Part shown: in pieces, positions 3,451 through 31,137 of the stretch | Position numbering within the stretch: the stretch's first letter is position 1 | Layout of the letters: every line of letters starts with the position of its first letter | Source of the DNA: a virus | Lineage: Duplodnaviria > Caudoviricetes | Strand: one strand, 5' to 3' | Length of the DNA stretch: 64,000 nt | Virus record (IMG/VR): IMGVR_UViG_2893071988_000005 | Coordinates: 14,497 to 78,496 of that record | The notes under the pieces: generated by a model | Databases searched by the model: none | What the model was told of the DNA's origin: nothing | What the model saw: only the letters and a program-made list of their open reading frames with translations | Program-made: the position numbers and the translations under genes

Positions 3451-4855
3451 TACGCAGGTCGAAAAGATCGTCTTGGGGGCGATCTTGCAGAGCGAGGATT
3501 CGTTCTGGGAATTGGCGGACAGCCTGTCGATGGAGGTATTCTCCACCGACGATCACAAGAAAATCTATGCGGTGGTCAGCGAGCTTGCCACGGTTGGCAA
3601 GGTCATTTCGCCGGCAATCGTAAGCGGGCGCGTCGGGAAGATCTCCGATGGGCAGGATGCAGACGGCTATATCTCCATGCTGCTCCACCTCGCGGCCCGC
3701 GAGGAGATGCTGCAGGCCAAGCTGCCGCAATATCTCGACGAGCTGCTCTCTTTGTCGGCGCGCCGGCGCCTGGAGAGCTTGGCGAACAGTATCCTGAAAT
3801 CGGTTGGTGACCTTCGGCTCGACCCGAACGATTTGATCGAGCGCACTGCGCAGCGCATGGCGGACATCTCCCGGGCCAGCACCATCGAGAAGGAGCATAC
3901 TCTCGCGTCATCGCTCGACGAGGTGTTCGAGCGGGCGAACGTGCAGCTCGAGCAGAATCAGACCAGCCTCGCGCTGCGGCCTTGCCTTGCCGGCCTGACG
4001 GAAATGATCGGGTTCATCCCCACGTCATCGCTCATCCTCTGGGGAGGCGGACCGGGCGGGGGCAAAACGGCAATCGCCGCGCAGCAGGCAATTTTCTCCG
4101 CCGAAATGGATGGTGAGCCCACCACGTTCTTTGAACTGGAAATGGACAACCGGTCGCTCGTCACCCGCGCGCTGTCTGGCCGCACCGGTGTCACGGCACG
4201 CGATGCCATGCTCGGCCTGACCGAGGAGCAGCTGGGCAAGATCCTCGACGTTCGCAAGGAAGTGCGGGAGGTCCCGCTTCGTCTGATCTGCCGCGGCGAA
4301 ATGACCATGGAGCAGCTTGCGATGCGGGCGAGGGCGCACAAGCGCAAGCATGGGCTCCGGCTTCTGCTGGTCGACCACATGAAGCTGCTCGGCCGGGCCA
4401 ATGCTGGCCGGCTGAGCGGGCCGGAGATCGTCTACAAGAACGGCGGCACGCTGAAGGCCCTCGCAAAGGAACTCGACTGCGCGATCATTGCGCTCTGCCA
4501 GTTCACCAAGGACGCGCGCTCGCGCGAGGACAATCCAGAACCGGAGATGGAGGACTTCTACGGCGGTGCGCTGGAAGAGCATGCCGACATGATGCTGGCC
4601 AACTTCAATCGCCATGCCTGGCTAACGAAGAATCCTCCGAAAACGAAGAACAAGCAGGAGGAATACGACGGGAAGCTGATCGTCAATAAAGGGAAAATCG
4701 AAGTCTACAAGTTGAAGGACCGATTGGGCCCGGGGCGAGATCGCCGGATCTTTAATTGGAACGGCCGGCTCACCCGCTTCGAGGACCAGGACGTGGCCCC
4801 CAAGCAAAACAGCCTCTTCACCGACGAACCCACATTCCACGAGGTCTACAACTGA
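3428..4855 (+). CDS. DnaB-like replicative helicase
   Basis: Walker A GGPGGGKT, FELEM, LLLVDH, LKALAKELDCAIIALCQ, EEHAD. Confidence 0.92.
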   Translation: MTNSVIGNTQVEKIVLGAILQSEDSFWELADSLSMEVFSTDDHKKIYAVVSELATVGKVISPAIVSGRVGKISDGQDADGYISMLLHLAAREEMLQAKLPQYLDELLSLSARRRLESLANSILKSVGDLRLDPNDLIERTAQRMADISRASTIEKEHTLASSLDEVFERANVQLEQNQTSLALRPCLAGLTEMIGFIPTSSLILWGGGPGGGKTAIAAQQAIFSAEMDGEPTTFFELEMDNRSLVTRALSGRTGVTARDAMLGLTEEQLGKILDVRKEVREVPLRLICRGEMTMEQLAMRARAHKRKHGLRLLLVDHMKLLGRANAGRLSGPEIVYKNGGTLKALAKELDCAIIALCQFTKDARSREDNPEPEMEDFYGGALEEHADMMLANFNRHAWLTKNPPKTKNKQEEYDGKLIVNKGKIEVYKLKDRLGPGRDRRIFNWNGRLTRFEDQDVAPKQNSLFTDEPTFHEVYN

Positions 4856-27634: not shown

Positions 27635-28252
27635 TCACACATAGCCGAGGCTCTCCTGGGTTAGCGTATCCAAGATCGTGACGCCTTCCGAGATCTTGGT
27701 ATCGACGGAGATCGTCTTGAAGTGGTCGAACGCGCGGTTGTGGGCGGCAAGGAACTTGGATGCTTCCTTGCCGATGTTTTCGATGAAGAGTTTGCCCTCC
27801 AGCACTGCGAGGCACATTTCAGCGATAACGTCATCCCGAACGAACTTCGGAATGGCGCGGGAAACCGCCTTGTTGATGAGCTTGAAAACCTCGTCTGGTG
27901 ACAGCGTGATCTTCTTTATCGAACGCTCTTTCGCATATCGCCGCTTGTTCCTGGCGCGCTGTTTTTCGATGGTCTTCCAGTAGTAATCTCGCTGATAGGC
28001 GCGCTCTTTTTCGCGCGCACCTTCAACGAGCTTTGCGGCATCCCTGCGGGCCTTCCAGTAGGGGAGAAGCCTTTCCCGGTTGCGCTCTCGGAACTCCTTT
28101 TGAAGCTGGCGCATACGCTGTTTCTGCGCCTTCGTCCGCGTCGGGTATCTATTGCGAGCGCCCCAGTTCTTGGAATGCCGACGCCGCTCTTCCTTCGCCA
28201 TAGCCGCCCATACTGAGGGCAAGAACCCGTACTTGTTGGGCTCCTCATCCAT
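27635..28252 (-). CDS. Basic protein with sigma-like C-terminal region
   Basis: Arg/Lys-rich helices then RDDVIAEMCLAVLEG...ISVD. Confidence 0.55.
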   Translation of the reverse strand: MDEEPNKYGFLPSVWAAMAKEERRRHSKNWGARNRYPTRTKAQKQRMRQLQKEFRERNRERLLPYWKARRDAAKLVEGAREKERAYQRDYYWKTIEKQRARNKRRYAKERSIKKITLSPDEVFKLINKAVSRAIPKFVRDDVIAEMCLAVLEGKLFIENIGKEASKFLAAHNRAFDHFKTISVDTKISEGVTILDTLTQESLGYV

Positions 28253-28901
28253 GGTCACGCCCTCCATCGAGCGCGGGCGGAGTGATCGGGCACCAGTGGG
28301 TGAACTCGTAGTTGCTCGGTTTGGCTTTGTCGTCGTCGTGCTTGATGAGGCCATCATGATCGGCCAGCCACCAAGGGCCGTTTTGGGACCGGCGAATGAC
28401 GAGATAGCGATGCTCGCCGAGCCACATGTATCTGGCGAGGATCGCCGTACCGTCTTTCGGGGCGGTCTCGATGGGGCGCCAGTCGTCTGCCGTGACGGCG
28501 TAGATTGTCGGGTCCTGCGTCTCCTGCACGATGGTCAGCAGGCTTTCGGTCTTGCCGAGCGCTTGGGCCTTCACAATGACGACGGAGCCCGCGCCGGAGG
28601 GCCTGATGATGGCCCGGATCGAGCGTAGGAGGGGAGATACGCCCTCCTGCAAATCGTCGTCCTCGAACCCAGAAATGAAGGATTCGGCGGCGAGTAGCGC
28701 GGTAAACATCTGAGGGGCTGCAGCCATCTGGCGAGCAAGGGAGGCCAGCGCATCGGTCGGCCATTTCAGCGGCGTGCTGAGTTCGAAAATCGGCATGGGC
28801 GCGGCTGTGCTGATGTAGCCGAACGGCATGGGCTCGCCATCGATGGCGGAGCCGTAAAGCGAATGCGGTTCGAACTGCAAGGGGAGAGGGAACGGGTTCA
28901 T
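28245..28901 (-). CDS. Mosaic phage protein with DUF551-like C-terminus
   Basis: WRPIETAPKDGT...THWCPITPP. Confidence 0.7.
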   Translation of the reverse strand: MNPFPLPLQFEPHSLYGSAIDGEPMPFGYISTAAPMPIFELSTPLKWPTDALASLARQMAAAPQMFTALLAAESFISGFEDDDLQEGVSPLLRSIRAIIRPSGAGSVVIVKAQALGKTESLLTIVQETQDPTIYAVTADDWRPIETAPKDGTAILARYMWLGEHRYLVIRRSQNGPWWLADHDGLIKHDDDKAKPSNYEFTHWCPITPPALDGGRDHG

Positions 28902-29413
28902 CGTGCCTCCGGCTGCTTCTTGATGAACATGGAAAGGGTGGCCGCGACAGGAAGTTCGCGCACGCCTTCGGCGACGGCATCGGCGACTTTCTGGAGTGAG
29001 CGCGGCTGCGTCATCATCGCGACGGTGCCGAGGATGGAAGCCTGCGCGGATGCCGCCGCTTGCTGCAGGCGGGTCAGGTTTTCGAAATCGGCCTTGGCCT
29101 GGCGCTCCAGCGCGCGCAGGGCTTTCCGCCGAACGCTTTTGGCATTGGCCGCGCCGTCTTCGACGATCTCGGCGTCATTGAGCCGGCGAAAGCCCTCGTT
29201 GCGAACGCAGCCGAAAACCATGTCGTGGTCGCGCATGGCGCGGATGGTGGCTGTCCGGAGCGGCGCTCGCAGCTTGCTCAACGGGAGCGAGGTGATGTCT
29301 CTCATGCGGCCGTAGGTGATGATTTCTCCGACCTCGATCTTCTTCAGTTCCTGCAGAAGCAGGCGGGATTCGACGGACATGCGGAATGAGGGTTTGGGCA
29401 TGGGGTTCTCCAT
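28898..29413 (-). CDS. Putative accessory protein of the RAMP/pentamer-array system (winged-helix-like N-terminus, helical C-terminus)
   Basis: Directly downstream of array E; GEIITYGRMRDI...VFGCVRNEGFRRL. Confidence 0.7.
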   Translation of the reverse strand: MENPMPKPSFRMSVESRLLLQELKKIEVGEIITYGRMRDITSLPLSKLRAPLRTATIRAMRDHDMVFGCVRNEGFRRLNDAEIVEDGAANAKSVRRKALRALERQAKADFENLTRLQQAAASAQASILGTVAMMTQPRSLQKVADAVAEGVRELPVAATLSMFIKKQPEAR

Positions 29414-29433
29414 GTAGAGGGGAGGCGGCTGGT

Positions 29434-29501
29434 GTATAGCGAGGCGCGACGTTGTGGGGCGCTGCGACGTGGCGAGCTGTGCAGAGGCGCGACGTGGAGT
29501 G
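29434..29501 (-). repeat. Pentamer array E: 14 units of C(G/A)C + NN
   Basis: Strict 5-nt phase; NN on - strand TC GT GC TG AG GC GT AG CC AA CG CT TA. Confidence 0.9.
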
Positions 29502-29587
29502 GCGGATGTGGTGCATTTTCGGCACCTATAAGCCCTTGTGCTGCCGAGGGTTTACAGGTGCCGACCCTTTCGGGCCGGCTGGCTGAT

Positions 29588-29650
29588 GCGGAGTGTCGCG
29601 GGGCGCAGTGGGGTGACGAGAAGCGTTGTGCTGCGGCGCGGGGTGGTGCG
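29588..29650 (-). repeat. Pentamer array D: 13 units of C(G/A)C + NN
   Basis: NN on - strand AC CC GC AG AA TT GT CC TG CC GA TC. Confidence 0.9.
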
Positions 29651-29732
29651 GGTGATGCCGTTGCCGACACCTCTGTCCCGCTCATTTCAGCAAGATAGAG
29701 GTGCCGGCCTCCGAAGAGACCGGCTGGCTGAT

Positions 29733-29800
29733 GCTTTGTGTTGCGATGCGAGACGTTGCCGCGCGCTGCGCCGCGGTGCGACGAGTGGCGTCGTGACGCG
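29733..29800 (-). repeat. Pentamer array C: 14 units of C(G/A)C + NN
   Basis: Begins 3 nt after the RAMP gene stop; NN on - strand GT GA CA GT AC GG AG GC AA CT AT AA AA. Confidence 0.9.
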
Positions 29801-29803
29801 AGG

Positions 29804-30376
29804 TTAAACCTCAGACCACTCAAACCTCTCGACCGTGAAGCGGCCATTGAAGCCGCCTTTCTCCGGCCGGAAGCGGCCGATGCCGACGAGCCGCCCAGCT
29901 TCGACGAGGGCCTGCTCGAAAACTTTGTTCGGGATCACCTCGTCCAGAATGGAGAAGTGCGCCTTGCCTTCCCAGGAGGGAATGTACGGAAACTTGCGGC
30001 GAACACGCTTGCCGCTGCCGCGCACGCCGTCGGCGTTCGCCCAGATCGTGATGGGCTGGAGCTTGTCCTTGTGGACGCCGATCGGCACGTTGCCGTCGCA
30101 GATCTGCCCGGCGACGAAGAACTTCGTGTAGGTGGACTTGCCGCGCCCGGGGATCGAAATGTTGAGACGCTTCACCGCCTCATCGATGCTCATTTTGAGA
30201 GCCATGGCGGGGATGCAGACGGTGCCTGCGTCGTCATAGGTTGCCTTCTCCTTCCAGAGGCGAAGGTCGTAGTCGGCGGCGGATTCCTTCTCCAACTTGG
30301 GATGATGGTCCGGGTCGATGGCGGCGGACTGGGAATAGGGCGTGGCGGATTTCAGGTGTGCGATGACGATGCGCAT
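29804..30376 (-). CDS. Stand-alone RAMP/Cas7-like RNA-binding protein (Vipr-like)
   Basis: N-terminal beta strand + TP, CIPAMALKMSIDEA (cf. RAMP IPGSSLKG), C-terminal Gly-rich loop GIGRFRPEKGGFNGRF. Confidence 0.8.
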   Translation of the reverse strand: MRIVIAHLKSATPYSQSAAIDPDHHPKLEKESAADYDLRLWKEKATYDDAGTVCIPAMALKMSIDEAVKRLNISIPGRGKSTYTKFFVAGQICDGNVPIGVHKDKLQPITIWANADGVRGSGKRVRRKFPYIPSWEGKAHFSILDEVIPNKVFEQALVEAGRLVGIGRFRPEKGGFNGRFTVERFEWSEV

Positions 30377-30403
30377 TGAGGAGACCTTTCTGATGGGGCT
30401 GAT

Positions 30404-30471
30404 GTGTTGCGAGGCGGGGCGACGAGCCGCAGCGCGTGGCGAAACGACGCGCGGCAGGGCGCGGCGCAGTG
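30404..30471 (-). repeat. Pentamer array B: 14 units of C(G/A)C + NN
   Basis: NN on - strand TG CG CC CG GT TT CA GC GG GT CC CT AA. Confidence 0.9.
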
Positions 30472-30549
30472 GGTGTTGACACCCTGAAAGCGGCCGAGGT
30501 GCCGGCAGATTTCAGGGTGCCAACTCCACAAGGGAGTTGGCGGGCTGAA

Positions 30550-30607
30550 GTGTGGTGTTGCGGCGCGCAGCGACGTGCAGCGGAGTGGAGCGCTACGCGG
30601 CGAAGTG
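30550..30607 (-). repeat. Pentamer array A: 12 units of C(G/A)C + NN
   Basis: NN on - strand TT CG AG TC TC TG GT TG GC AA CA. Confidence 0.9.
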
Positions 30608-30704
30608 GAGCATTCCGGCTCCCTTATCCATCGGCAGCTCGAGAGATAAGGCAACCGGAAGCACGAAAGCGGGCGGGGTGAGGCCCTCATCCCGCCCGTT
30701 CGTG

Positions 30705-30947
30705 CTATCGGGGTTTCAGCGGTAGAACTTCCCGGACTTCCGGATCCAGCGCGGCATGCGCGGCCTCCCATTTGTCGCGGGTTTCGGTGAACCGCTCATA
30801 CGCGGCACGCAATCGGGTGCCGGGTTCGCCTGTCGCGCGCTGGGTGTGGCGGAGTTCGCCGGGCCATTCCATGGGGAAGGCGAGGGCGATCTGCACCAGC
30901 CACGCGCGATCGGCGGCTCTATGGGCCTCATAGATCGAGGCGATCAA
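30705..30947 (-). CDS. Small hypothetical protein
   Basis: GGAG RBS; 80 aa. Confidence 0.55.
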   Translation of the reverse strand: MIASIYEAHRAADRAWLVQIALAFPMEWPGELRHTQRATGEPGTRLRAAYERFTETRDKWEAAHAALDPEVREVLPLKPR

Positions 30948-31137
30948 TACAATGCGTCTCCAAGGCTGGAGGGACAGGGTGCCTCCCCGTGGCGTGGGCG
31001 GGAAGGGAGGCTGGCGAGCCCGCCGATGATATTCAGCCGGCTTTCAGGCCCGGCGCATGCTGCACCTCCGCGTTTGAGGGATCGGTTGCCATTGGCCGCG
31101 CATTGGGCCGGTTGATGGGTGCGCGGCCCCGGAACGG

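What the first reader, a model, noticed from the sequence alone, without database searches (positions are those of the whole stretch)
28898..30705. Phage RAMP/Cas7-like gene flanked by five 'fixed triplet + variable dinucleotide' arrays: candidate non-CRISPR RNA-guided system
Seen in sequence: five non-coding tracts (30550-30607, 30404-30471, 29733-29800, 29588-29650, 29434-29501) each hold a strict 5-nt phase for 12-14 units. On the - strand, 53 of 67 fixed triplets are CGC (34) or CAC (19), and the other 14 are single-base variants. The intervening dinucleotides differ in every array. Two arrays lie upstream and three downstream of a 190-aa gene, all co-oriented, followed by a 171-aa gene. 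Established knowledge: the 190-aa protein carries RAMP/Cas7-type hallmarks (IPAMALK resembling IPGSSLKG, and a C-terminal Gly-rich loop GIGRFRPEKGGFNGRF), and Cas7 proteins polymerise along guide RNA with a fixed step. Inference: each array is a guide in which one subunit binds each C(G/A)C while the NN pairs spell a gapped target of about 22-26 specified nt, probably in rival phages or host genes. No other cas gene is in the window. From memory this matches the architecture of recently reported VIPR systems, whose fixed triplet was GGY; CRC would then be a distinct variant. I cannot verify that comparison here.
Basis: partly seen in the sequence, partly recalled or inferred. Interest (0 to 1): 0.97.

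Follow-up and report, generated by a model that had tools for sequence, protein, structure and literature searches.

The report
Phage VIPR system with C-R-C repeats
A tailed phage carries a small RNA-guided gene-silencing module of the recently described VIPR kind, whose five guide-RNA tracts use the fixed letters C-R-C where the studied systems use G-G-Y; the kind is already in print, so this is a new member and not a new system.

Summary
Five period-5 tracts (12-14 units each) lie on the - strand around a 190-aa gene, and 53 of 67 fixed triplets are CGC or CAC. They are the only such tracts in the 78.5-kb phage, and simulated sequence gives about 0.01 per 64 kb.

The 190-aa protein has a Cas7/Csm3-type RAMP fold. 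A family profile finds one solved protein, SUSP1 Vipr, at E 3.5e-11. Period-5 arrays lie beside the gene in 98 of 100 loci (99 relatives plus the window), always on the gene's strand. Most are C-N-C; a nested minority is canonical G-G-C. Relatives of the 171-aa neighbour accompany vipr in 52 of 99 other loci, and its model has a winged-helix-like N-terminus.

This is therefore a VIPR locus (bioRxiv 10.64898/2026.04.26.720920). Non-canonical triplets, CAC/NN among them, are already reported (10.64898/2026.10.21.760802).

- Only C1 and C3 of the triplet are fixed.
- The SUSP1 residues that read the two guanines are replaced here.
- Every array ends in phase with CAGCC.
- Three arrays carry a two-hairpin tail; two sit in the leaders of vipr and vap.

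No target and no expression data were found.

The parts
30548..30612 (-). vrRNA array A: 12-13 units of C-R-C + NN
   Evidence: Phase and units are printed. 11 of 12 triplets are CRC.
30478..30547 (-). Tail of array A: in-phase CAGCC, then two hairpins; the second begins with GGCACC
   Evidence: Fold of an 81-nt stretch (30472-30552): -37.3 kcal/mol, z -4.6. Shared consensus structure with the tails of C and D.
30397..30471 (-). vrRNA array B: 14 units plus in-phase CAGCC, no hairpin tail. It ends 20 nt before the vipr ATG, so it lies in the vipr leader.
   Evidence: 10 of 14 triplets CRC. Relatives L001 and L020-L022 have an array at the same place.
29804..30376 (-). vipr: 190-aa single-RRM RAMP protein with a thumb (about residues 114-128) and a G-loop (165-179)
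   Evidence: AF2 pLDDT 92.1. Foldseek hits to Cas7/Csm3. Profile hit to SUSP1 Vipr 36pp_D at E 3.5e-11. 1479 clusters of relatives.
29731..29800 (-). vrRNA array C: 14 units, starting 3 nt after the vipr stop codon
   Evidence: 10 of 14 triplets CRC.
29660..29730 (-). Tail of array C: CAGCC plus two hairpins; the first has a UUCG loop
   Evidence: Fold of an 87-nt stretch (29651-29737): -43 kcal/mol, z -5.0. Consensus structure.
29586..29650 (-). vrRNA array D: 13 units
   Evidence: 12 of 13 triplets CRC.
29512..29585 (-). Tail of array D: CAGCC plus two hairpins; the first has a GAAA loop
   Evidence: Fold of a 91-nt stretch (29502-29592): -37.2 kcal/mol, z -3.4. Consensus structure.
29427..29501 (-). 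vrRNA array E: 14 units plus in-phase CAGCC, no hairpin tail; it lies in the leader of the next gene
   Evidence: 10 of 14 triplets CRC.
28898..29413 (-). vap-like accessory gene: 171-aa ORF, probable true start 29401 (167 aa). Winged-helix-like N-terminal domain followed by a helical C-terminal part.
   Evidence: Relatives lie beside vipr in 52 of 99 other loci. AF2 pLDDT 91. Only weak fold hits, all winged-helix DNA binders. Weak profile hit to the DNA-binding domain of alkylguanine transferase, E 0.03.

Best explanation
The stretch 28898-30612 (- strand) is a VIPR (Viral Interference Programmable Repeat) module of a tailed phage. It holds five vrRNAs, the Vipr RAMP protein (190 aa) and a winged-helix-like accessory protein (Vap-like, about 167 aa).

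Inferred from the published SUSP1 and P. fulva work:
- The locus is transcribed on the - strand, and the repeat tracts are released as guide RNAs of roughly 70-140 nt.
- One Vipr protomer binds each 5-nt unit and buries the fixed triplet, here C-R-C instead of G-G-Y.
- The exposed NN dinucleotides of 12-14 units pair with double-stranded DNA in a gapped register. The published rule skips one base per unit.
- The filament sits on the target and blocks transcription of a competing phage, satellite or prophage. The Vap-like DNA binder may assist.

Shown here: the anatomy, the fold, the sequence link to the solved Vipr, the conserved co-occurrence and strand of arrays, vipr and vap across relatives, and the hypervariable NN.

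Not shown here: expression, RNA binding, the skip length in this clade, and the targets.
For: Observation:
- Five arrays on one strand only, far beyond chance.

Protein:
- Confident model (pLDDT 92.1) with a Cas7/Csm3 fold: 8z4j_J at E 4.9e-7, 9ash_F at E 1.2e-6, 146 hits at E<=1e-3.
- A profile of 71 diverse relatives hits one PDB sequence only, 36pp_D 'SUSP1 Vipr protein', at E 3.5e-11 over profile positions 23-183.

Comparative:
- 98 of 100 loci (window included) have period-5 arrays of at least 11 units beside the gene.
- C[AG]C tracts lie on the gene's strand in 74 of 100 loci and GG[CT] tracts in 12 of 100. Their complements lie on that strand in 0 of 100. The RNA strand is therefore the gene strand, as in the canonical relatives of the same family.
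- NN strings differ between close relatives, while the triplets, the array positions and the CAGCC end are kept.
- NN entropy is 1.97 bits.
- Relatives of the 171-aa gene lie beside vipr in 52 of 99 other loci. The other flanking ORFs have relatives in 1, 0 and 0 loci.

Tails:
- Arrays A, C and D are followed by two hairpins with UUCG or GAAA loops on the - strand. They fold better than shuffles (z -4.6, -5.0, -3.4), and 6 of 21 consensus pairs keep pairing through double changes.

Context:
- The record is a virus with terminase, portal, head-protease, sheath and tape-measure genes.

Literature:
- VIPR anatomy and mechanism. Non-canonical triplets beside Vipr-like folds.
Against: - The canonical GGY triplet is not present.
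- In the HMMER alignment, the SUSP1 residues said to read G1 and G2 (D177, R138, W178) are R168, F129 and F169 here. Binding of this RNA is therefore inferred from co-occurrence, not from conserved contacts.
- Arrays B and E lack the hairpin tail.
- The consensus scan found no sigma-70-like promoter and no terminator in 28100-31000.
- No guide has a target under a 0, 1 or 2-nt skip in the phage's own genome or the 99 related loci. Under the 1-nt skip there is none in IMG/VR (exact 11-unit cores of all five guides), in the metagenome contigs (cores of C and D), or in 301 and 151 genomes of the order of Devosia riboflavina (guides C and A).
- The tails also fold better than shuffles on the + strand (z -3.4, -3.2, -2.4).
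Confidence: 0.85

Rival explanations
1. The functional RNAs are made from the + strand, antisense to vipr. That would give G-Y-G + NN units with the hairpins as a 5' handle, which sits closer to the published YNNNG-type consensus.
For: Read on the + strand and rotated, the units are Y-G-N-N-G, which fits the 'YNNNG' class named in the discovery paper's methods. The tail regions also fold better than shuffles on the + strand (z -3.4, -3.2, -2.4).
Against: In 100 loci oriented by the gene, the complement pattern lies on the gene strand in 0 loci. Relatives in the same protein family carry canonical GG[CT] units on the gene strand in 12 loci. The published tail is 3' of the repeats, which here holds only for the - strand. 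UUCG and GAAA loops exist only on the - strand, and the - strand z-scores are better.
Confidence: 0.03
2. The tracts act as DNA or as cis-acting mRNA leaders, not as trans-acting guides. They could be operator or iteron-like binding sites for the winged-helix protein, or leaders through which the RAMP protein controls translation of vipr and vap only.
For: Arrays B and E end 13-25 nt before start codons and have no tail, and the same holds in relatives. The neighbour has a DNA-binding-like fold. No trans target was found in any search.
Against: Binding sites for a single protein should keep their sequence, yet NN is near-random (1.97 bits) and differs between close relatives. Arrays A, C and D are not in front of genes and carry structured tails. 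The protein is homologous to a Vipr shown to use such RNAs as guides.
Confidence: 0.06
3. The locus is an inactive remnant: the arrays and genes are kept by descent, but the system no longer targets anything.
For: No targets were found. No RNA data are on hand.
Against: Both ORFs are intact, and the Vipr keeps all 40 columns that are invariant among 24 relatives. All five arrays are well formed (53 of 67 CRC). The blank target searches were narrow: exact cores or at most 3 mismatches, and the host is unknown.
Confidence: 0.05

Closest known systems
SUSP1 and P. fulva type II VIPR systems (bioRxiv 10.64898/2026.04.26.720920 and 10.64898/2026.04.26.720927)
   Same: - Phage-borne two-gene module: vipr of about 190-200 aa plus a DNA-binding-like vap.
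- One vrRNA upstream of vipr and several downstream.
- 9-16 tandem 5-nt units with three fixed and two hypervariable bases.
- A structured 3' tail.
- Same fold, with sequence homology (E 3.5e-11). R179 of the pyrimidine pocket is kept as R170.
   Different: - The fixed triplet is C-R-C, not G-G-Y; only the third position (a pyrimidine) agrees.
- The residues reading G1 and G2 in SUSP1 (D177, R138, W178) are R168, F129 and F169 here, and the G-loop carries a 4-residue insertion.
- The tail is CAGCC plus two hairpins on three arrays and is absent on two. The published SUSP1 tail contains a pseudoknot.
- Targets and skip length are not established for this clade.
Non-canonical VIPR-like arrays found by entropy periodicity (bioRxiv 10.64898/2026.10.21.760802)
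   Same: Period-5 arrays beside Vipr-like folds whose fixed triplet is not GGY. The text names GAC/NN, CAC/NN, WGT/NN and TGH/NN in 21 of 99 period-5 clusters. CAC is one of the two main triplets here.
   Different: That work is a survey without loci described in the text I could read. I could not see its Fig. S10A list, so I cannot say whether CGC/NN or C-N-C is in it. It does not discuss the tail, the leader position or the pocket residues.
Cas7-family RAMPs of type III and type VII CRISPR-Cas (Csm3, Cmr4, type VII Cas7)
   Same: RRM core, thumb hairpin and glycine-rich loop, with best structural matches at TM 0.52-0.59. One subunit binds per fixed step along a guide RNA (established knowledge of Class 1 effectors).
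   Different: No Pfam, NCBIfam or PADLOC family is hit by vipr, the 171-aa gene or the 218-aa ORF. The step is 5 nt, not 6. The guide is a tandem repeat and not a spacer. Sequence identity to the structural matches is 10-16%.

Membership tests
VIPR system | Vipr protein: small single-RRM RAMP with thumb and glycine-rich loop | tested here: met
   AF2 model pLDDT 92.1, pTM 0.85. Foldseek hits to Cas7/Csm3 at E 5e-7 to 1e-6. The G-loop GIGRFRP...GRF aligns to the SUSP1 G-loop.
VIPR system | Sequence homology to an experimentally characterised Vipr | tested here: met
   The profile of 71 relatives hits only 36pp_D (SUSP1 Vipr) in the PDB, at E 3.5e-11. The narrower 24-sequence profile gave E 0.012.
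VIPR system | Flanking non-coding tracts of 9-16 tandem pentanucleotides, three fixed and two hypervariable | tested here: met
   Five tracts of 12-14 units. Entropy 0.81, 1.50, 0.96, 1.97, 1.97 bits. The same holds in 98 of 100 loci, window included.
VIPR system | Fixed triplet GGY (YNNGG units), the canonical definition | tested here: not met
   The triplets are CGC (34), CAC (19) or one-base variants (14) of 67. The discovery paper allows 'a related consensus' (NNNGG, YNNNG, NNNNG), and a later preprint lists CAC/NN among non-canonical forms. This therefore excludes the canonical subtype, not the family.
VIPR system | Invariable, structured 3' tail after the repeats | tested here: inconclusive
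   All five arrays end with in-phase CAGCC. Three of five then have two hairpins with some compensatory changes. Two of five have no tail. Under a strict parse, CAGCC ends were found in only 7 of 100 sequences (the phage genome plus six of the 99 loci).
VIPR system | Adjacent vap accessory gene with predicted DNA-interacting function | tested here: met
   Relatives of the 171-aa gene lie beside vipr in 52 of 99 other loci. The model has a winged-helix-like N-terminal domain. Its fold and profile matches are weak (best E 0.04 and 0.03).
VIPR system | Mostly viral or proviral location, without CRISPR array or cas operon | tested here: met
   The record is a virus with structural phage genes. The neighbouring ORFs hit no Pfam, PADLOC or NCBIfam family. 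The rest of the window was not screened for cas genes.
VIPR system | vrRNAs are expressed and co-purify with Vipr | not testable with these tools
   No RNA run was listed for this stretch.
VIPR system | NN strings match natural DNA targets under the 1-nt skip rule | tested here: inconclusive
   The best matches in the phage's own genome equal those of shuffled guides (18 of 26-28). There were 0 exact core matches in viral and metagenome contigs, 0 of 301 genomes for guide C, and 1 chance-level hit in 151 genomes for guide A.
CRISPR-Cas class 1 effector (Cas7/Csm3) | Encoded in a cas operon beside a CRISPR repeat-spacer array; 6-nt step on the crRNA | tested here: not met
   The only repeats in the locus are the period-5 tracts. 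The three neighbouring ORFs tested hit no known family. Only the fold is shared.

The most novel reading that the evidence does not exclude
This very large C-N-C clade (1479 clusters at 50% identity) reads its guide scaffold through a rebuilt pocket that fixes only two cytosines. The middle base drifts by lineage: G, A or T. That would make the clade orthogonal to GGY systems and might give it its own target-skip geometry. The tail-less arrays in the vipr and vap leaders would let Vipr loading on its own mRNA tune production of the system.
Probability: 0.2. Interest if true: 0.55.

Novelty: new member of a known kind. Interest (0 to 1): 0.4.

Why it matters
VIPR was described only in 2026, as a minimal RNA-guided DNA-silencing system of phages and a proposed ancestor of CRISPR RAMPs. 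All mechanistic work rests on GGY systems.

This locus is a clean, compact example (about 1.7 kb, five guides) of a populous branch that uses a different scaffold triplet. The residues that read the two guanines in the solved structure are replaced in this branch. If the branch works as inferred, it offers two things:
- a second Vipr-guide pair that might be orthogonal to GGY systems, for multiplexed silencing;
- a natural experiment on how a RAMP changes the RNA bases it reads.

For the scan itself, the result shows that this kind of signal can be recognised from raw sequence. What it found, however, is a member of a published kind.

Tried and rejected
Target search
- All five guides against the phage's own 78.5-kb genome at skips of 0, 1 and 2 gave at best 18 of 26-28 bases. 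Shuffled guides at skip 1 gave maxima averaging 17.3-18.4, highest 20.
- Against the 99 related loci the best was 18-20.
- Exact 11-unit cores under the 1-nt skip gave 0 matches in IMG/VR for guides A, C, B, D and E, and 0 in the metagenome contigs for C and D.
- Guide C with at most 3 mismatches gave 0 of 301 genomes of the order of G001.
- Guide A with at most 3 mismatches gave 1 of 151 genomes. The hit (21 of 24 bases) spans the end of a 124-aa ORF and the spacer after it. I reckon about 0.25 such hits are expected by chance, so I dropped it.
- Guides B, D and E were not searched in genomes.
- All-against-all test: 4367 distinct 8-unit windows from 410 arrays against 1.6 Mb gave exact seeds of 3, 10, 1 and 33 for skips 0 to 3, against 0, 7, 2 and 27 for shuffled windows. 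No seed extended past 8-10 units. The skip rule could therefore not be tested for this clade.

Other blanks
- Expression: no RNA holder was listed.
- Rfam: two chance-level miRNA rows only, E 0.27 and 0.65.
- The promoter and terminator consensus scan found none.
- Pfam, NCBIfam and PADLOC gave nothing for vipr, vap or the 218-aa ORF. PHROGs gave only phrog_4652, of unknown function, for vipr (E 1e-5).
- blastn and tblastn against the phage collection gave no match.
- Residue covariation with the first triplet base: N114, A113, R127 and K44 separate G-type from C-type proteins. There are only 6 distinct G-type proteins and they fall in one tree group, so this is not independent evidence. The careful tree did not finish, and the quick tree is what I cite.

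Rejected ideas
- Coding or translated repeats: a period of 5 is not a multiple of 3, and the tracts are intergenic.
- A CRISPR array: there are no long repeats or spacers.
Full report
**1. Observation**

On the - strand of window 29427-30612 there are five intergenic tracts in strict 5-nt phase. Of these, 34 have the triplet CGC and 19 CAC, and the remaining 14 are single-base variants, exactly as reported.

A scan for at least 7 C[AG]C units in 10 gives 5 tracts on the - strand and none on the + strand. One hundred Markov simulations of the window gave a mean of 0.01 tracts. The whole 78,496-base record, of which the window is bases 14497-78496, has no further tract.

Per-position entropy is 0.81, 1.50, 0.96, 1.97 and 1.97 bits. 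The truly fixed bases are therefore C1 and C3. Position 2 is G (57%) or A (30%), and NN is near random. No two arrays share more than 31% of their NN units in any register.

**2. Anatomy**

Every array ends in phase with CAGCC.
- Arrays A, C and D are followed by about 70 nt that fold into two adjacent hairpins. The first has a UUCG or GAAA loop in C and D, and the second starts with GGCACC.
- On the - strand these fold at z -4.6, -5.0 and -3.4 against shuffles. On the + strand the values are -3.4, -3.2 and -2.4.
- A three-sequence consensus has 21 pairs, 6 of which keep pairing through changes on both sides. Three sequences is a thin basis.
- Arrays B and E have no hairpins. Their CAGCC is followed within 13-25 nt by a purine-rich stretch and the start codons of the 190-aa and 171-aa genes.
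- The 171-aa ORF probably starts at its second ATG (29401), which follows GGAG and matches the N-termini of relatives.
- The consensus scan found no sigma-70-like promoter or terminator in 28100-31000.

**3. The 190-aa protein**

It matches no Pfam, NCBIfam or PADLOC family, and only PHROG 4652, of unknown function.

It has 2034 relatives at E<=0.001 among the 2156 candidates scored. A profile finds 1479 clusters at 50% identity at E<=0.001, of which 443 are at E<=1e-30.

The AlphaFold model is confident (pLDDT 92.1). Foldseek matches it to type VII Cas7, Csm3, Cmr subunits and gRAMP. The best hit is at E 4.9e-7, TM is 0.52-0.59, and 146 hits reach E<=1e-3.

A profile of 71 diverse relatives hits one sequence in the PDB, 36pp_D 'SUSP1 Vipr protein', at E 3.5e-11 over most of its length. 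The narrower 24-sequence profile gave E 0.012.

**4. Relatives**

I fetched 19 loci from genomes and 80 of 300 viral-contig relatives, all oriented by the gene.
- A motif-free period-5 detector finds arrays of at least 11 units beside the gene in 98 of 100 loci, window included. The exceptions are L005, which is cut at the contig end, and L012.
- C[AG]C tracts lie on the gene strand in 74 of 100 loci and GG[CT] tracts in 12 of 100. Their complements lie there in 0 of 100.
- Among 79 distinct proteins with arrays, the first base is C in 69, G in 6 and mixed in 4.
- The middle base follows lineage: G in most, A in L035, L083, L084 and L086, and T in L008 and L099.
- In a quick tree (the careful search did not finish), the G-type rows sit in one 10-row group nested among C-type rows.
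- The closest relatives (L001 from Devosia riboflavina, and L020-L024) keep an array directly before the vipr ATG, one directly after its stop, and the CAGCC end. Their NN are all different.
- The CAGCC end is specific to this sub-clade: 16 arrays in 7 of 100 sequences (the phage genome plus six of the 99 loci) under a strict parse.

**5. The 171-aa neighbour**

tblastn relatives lie beside vipr, on the same strand, in 52 of 99 other loci. The three other flanking ORFs have relatives in 1, 0 and 0 loci.

The model (pLDDT 91) has an N-terminal helix-strand-helix-helix-strand-strand domain followed by long helices. Foldseek finds nothing at E<=0.001. The weak top rows (E 0.04-0.3) are winged-helix DNA binders such as PurR, GntR and OmpR-type domains. 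A profile weakly matches the DNA-binding domain of alkylguanine transferases (E 0.03), and 2 of 22 members touch Pfam PF01035. I read it as a Vap-like DNA-binding accessory protein. The assignment rests on conserved neighbourhood more than on fold statistics.

**6. Context**

The record is a virus. It encodes a GpA-type large terminase, a portal, a fused head-protease protein, a tail sheath, a tape measure, a DnaB-like helicase and a ParB-like protein. The nearest named terminases are in Brucella/Ochrobactrum and Pseudorhizobium at 71-73% identity. The host is therefore probably in Hyphomicrobiales but is not pinned down.

**7. What is known**

Literature searches for 'VIPR', 'RNA-guided' and 'phage', and for 'vrRNA', found four relevant preprints.

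*10.64898/2026.04.26.720920.* I read the outline, all of Results, methods sections 18 and 20, the Discussion, and found passages. Figures and supplements were not visible. The paper defines VIPR as follows:
- a Vipr RAMP plus a vap gene, mostly in phages;
- vrRNAs of 9-16 YNNGG units with a structured 3' tail;
- targeting of dsDNA by the NN bases with one skipped base per unit;
- silencing of competing elements.

It describes seven types with 'GGY/NN motifs, or a related consensus', and its methods name NNNGG, YNNNG and NNNNG.

*10.64898/2026.04.26.720927* (outline, section 5, passages). In SUSP1, G1 is read by H17 and D177, and G2 by R138 and W178. Y3 sits in a pocket formed by E71, M72, R179, C173 and T175.

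*10.64898/2026.10.15.759431* (abstract and outline only). It describes satellite competition and solo vrRNAs.

*10.64898/2026.10.21.760802* (passages and section 33). It reports 99 period-5 clusters, 21 of them with non-canonical triplets, 'e.g. GAC/NN or CAC/NN ... WGT/NN or TGH/NN', beside Vipr-like folds.

I did not see CGC/NN or C-N-C named in the text I read. The figure lists (S17 and S10A) that could hold them were not visible. A CGC unit rotated is C-NN-C-G, which would fit 'YNNNG'.

**8. How this member differs**

In the HMMER alignment, SUSP1 R179 is kept as R170. D177 corresponds to R168, W178 to F169, R138 to F129, E71 to M58 and M72 to A59. The G-loop has a four-residue insertion.

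This matches the RNA. The pyrimidine at position 3 is kept (C), while the two guanines are replaced (C and R). The correspondence rests on an alignment, not on a structure. H17 lies outside the aligned part.

**9. Mechanism**

From steps 3 to 7, the best-supported reading is a working VIPR module with C-R-C scaffolds. It would be transcribed with its genes on the - strand. Vipr protomers would bind one unit each and present 12-14 NN pairs to DNA.

Transcription, processing, binding, the skip length and the targets are all inferred.

**10. Targets**

All searches were blank or at chance level. The searches were narrow: exact cores, or at most 3 mismatches in a sample of one order. The host is unknown. 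This leaves the question open.

**11. Verdict**

The system belongs to a kind published in 2026, and non-canonical triplets are already noted in print. I therefore rate it a new member of a known kind, of moderate interest for the scaffold-triplet change and the replaced pocket residues.

Noticed in passing
L050, L072-L074, L076, L077, L082, L087, L089, L090, L092, L094, L014: Within the same protein family (39-50% identity to the window's Vipr), these loci carry G-G-C or G-R-C units, the canonical type, on the gene strand. In a quick tree they fall in one 10-row group nested among C-type rows. L075 and L097 have a mixed first base.
   Followed up: partly
L035, L083, L084, L086 (C-A-C); L008, L099 (C-T-C): The middle base of the fixed triplet is lineage-specific (A or T instead of G), while C1 and C3 stay. 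The family's common scaffold is therefore C-N-C.
   Followed up: partly
L047 4583-4999; L068 5321-5708; L054 and L056, several tracts: Some relatives have uninterrupted period-5 tracts of 40-83 units, far longer than one guide. They may be the staggered or serial arrays that the discovery paper mentions.
   Followed up: no
L068 array at 4581 versus L006 about 2282 and L058 about 1862: Under the 1-nt skip, one stretch of an L068 array matches 20 of 22 specified bases inside the vipr gene of L006 and L058. It might be a guide aimed at a rival VIPR system, or it might be chance, since shuffled controls gave 7 seeds against 10.
   Followed up: partly
L034 8067-8361: About 4 kb downstream of a C-R-C type vipr there are GGC period-5 runs in shifting phases. 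They lie inside a 159-codon open frame, so it is unclear whether this is a second, canonical array or Gly-rich coding sequence.
   Followed up: partly
window 30655-30705 (- strand): By eye, a GC-rich inverted repeat (GGGCGGG ... CCCGCCC) followed by TTTCGTGCTT lies just after the 80-aa ORF and about 40 nt before array A. It may end the upstream transcription unit. The consensus scan did not call it.
   Followed up: no
window 35789-57774 (+ strand): Late-gene block of a contractile-tailed phage: GpA-type large terminase, portal, fused head-protease, sheath and tape measure. The nearest named terminases are in Brucella/Ochrobactrum and Pseudorhizobium at 71-73% identity.
   Followed up: partly
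window 28898-29413 (-): The 171-aa ORF has two in-frame ATGs 12 nt apart. Relatives and a GGAG upstream favour the second (29401), which gives 167 aa.
   Followed up: partly
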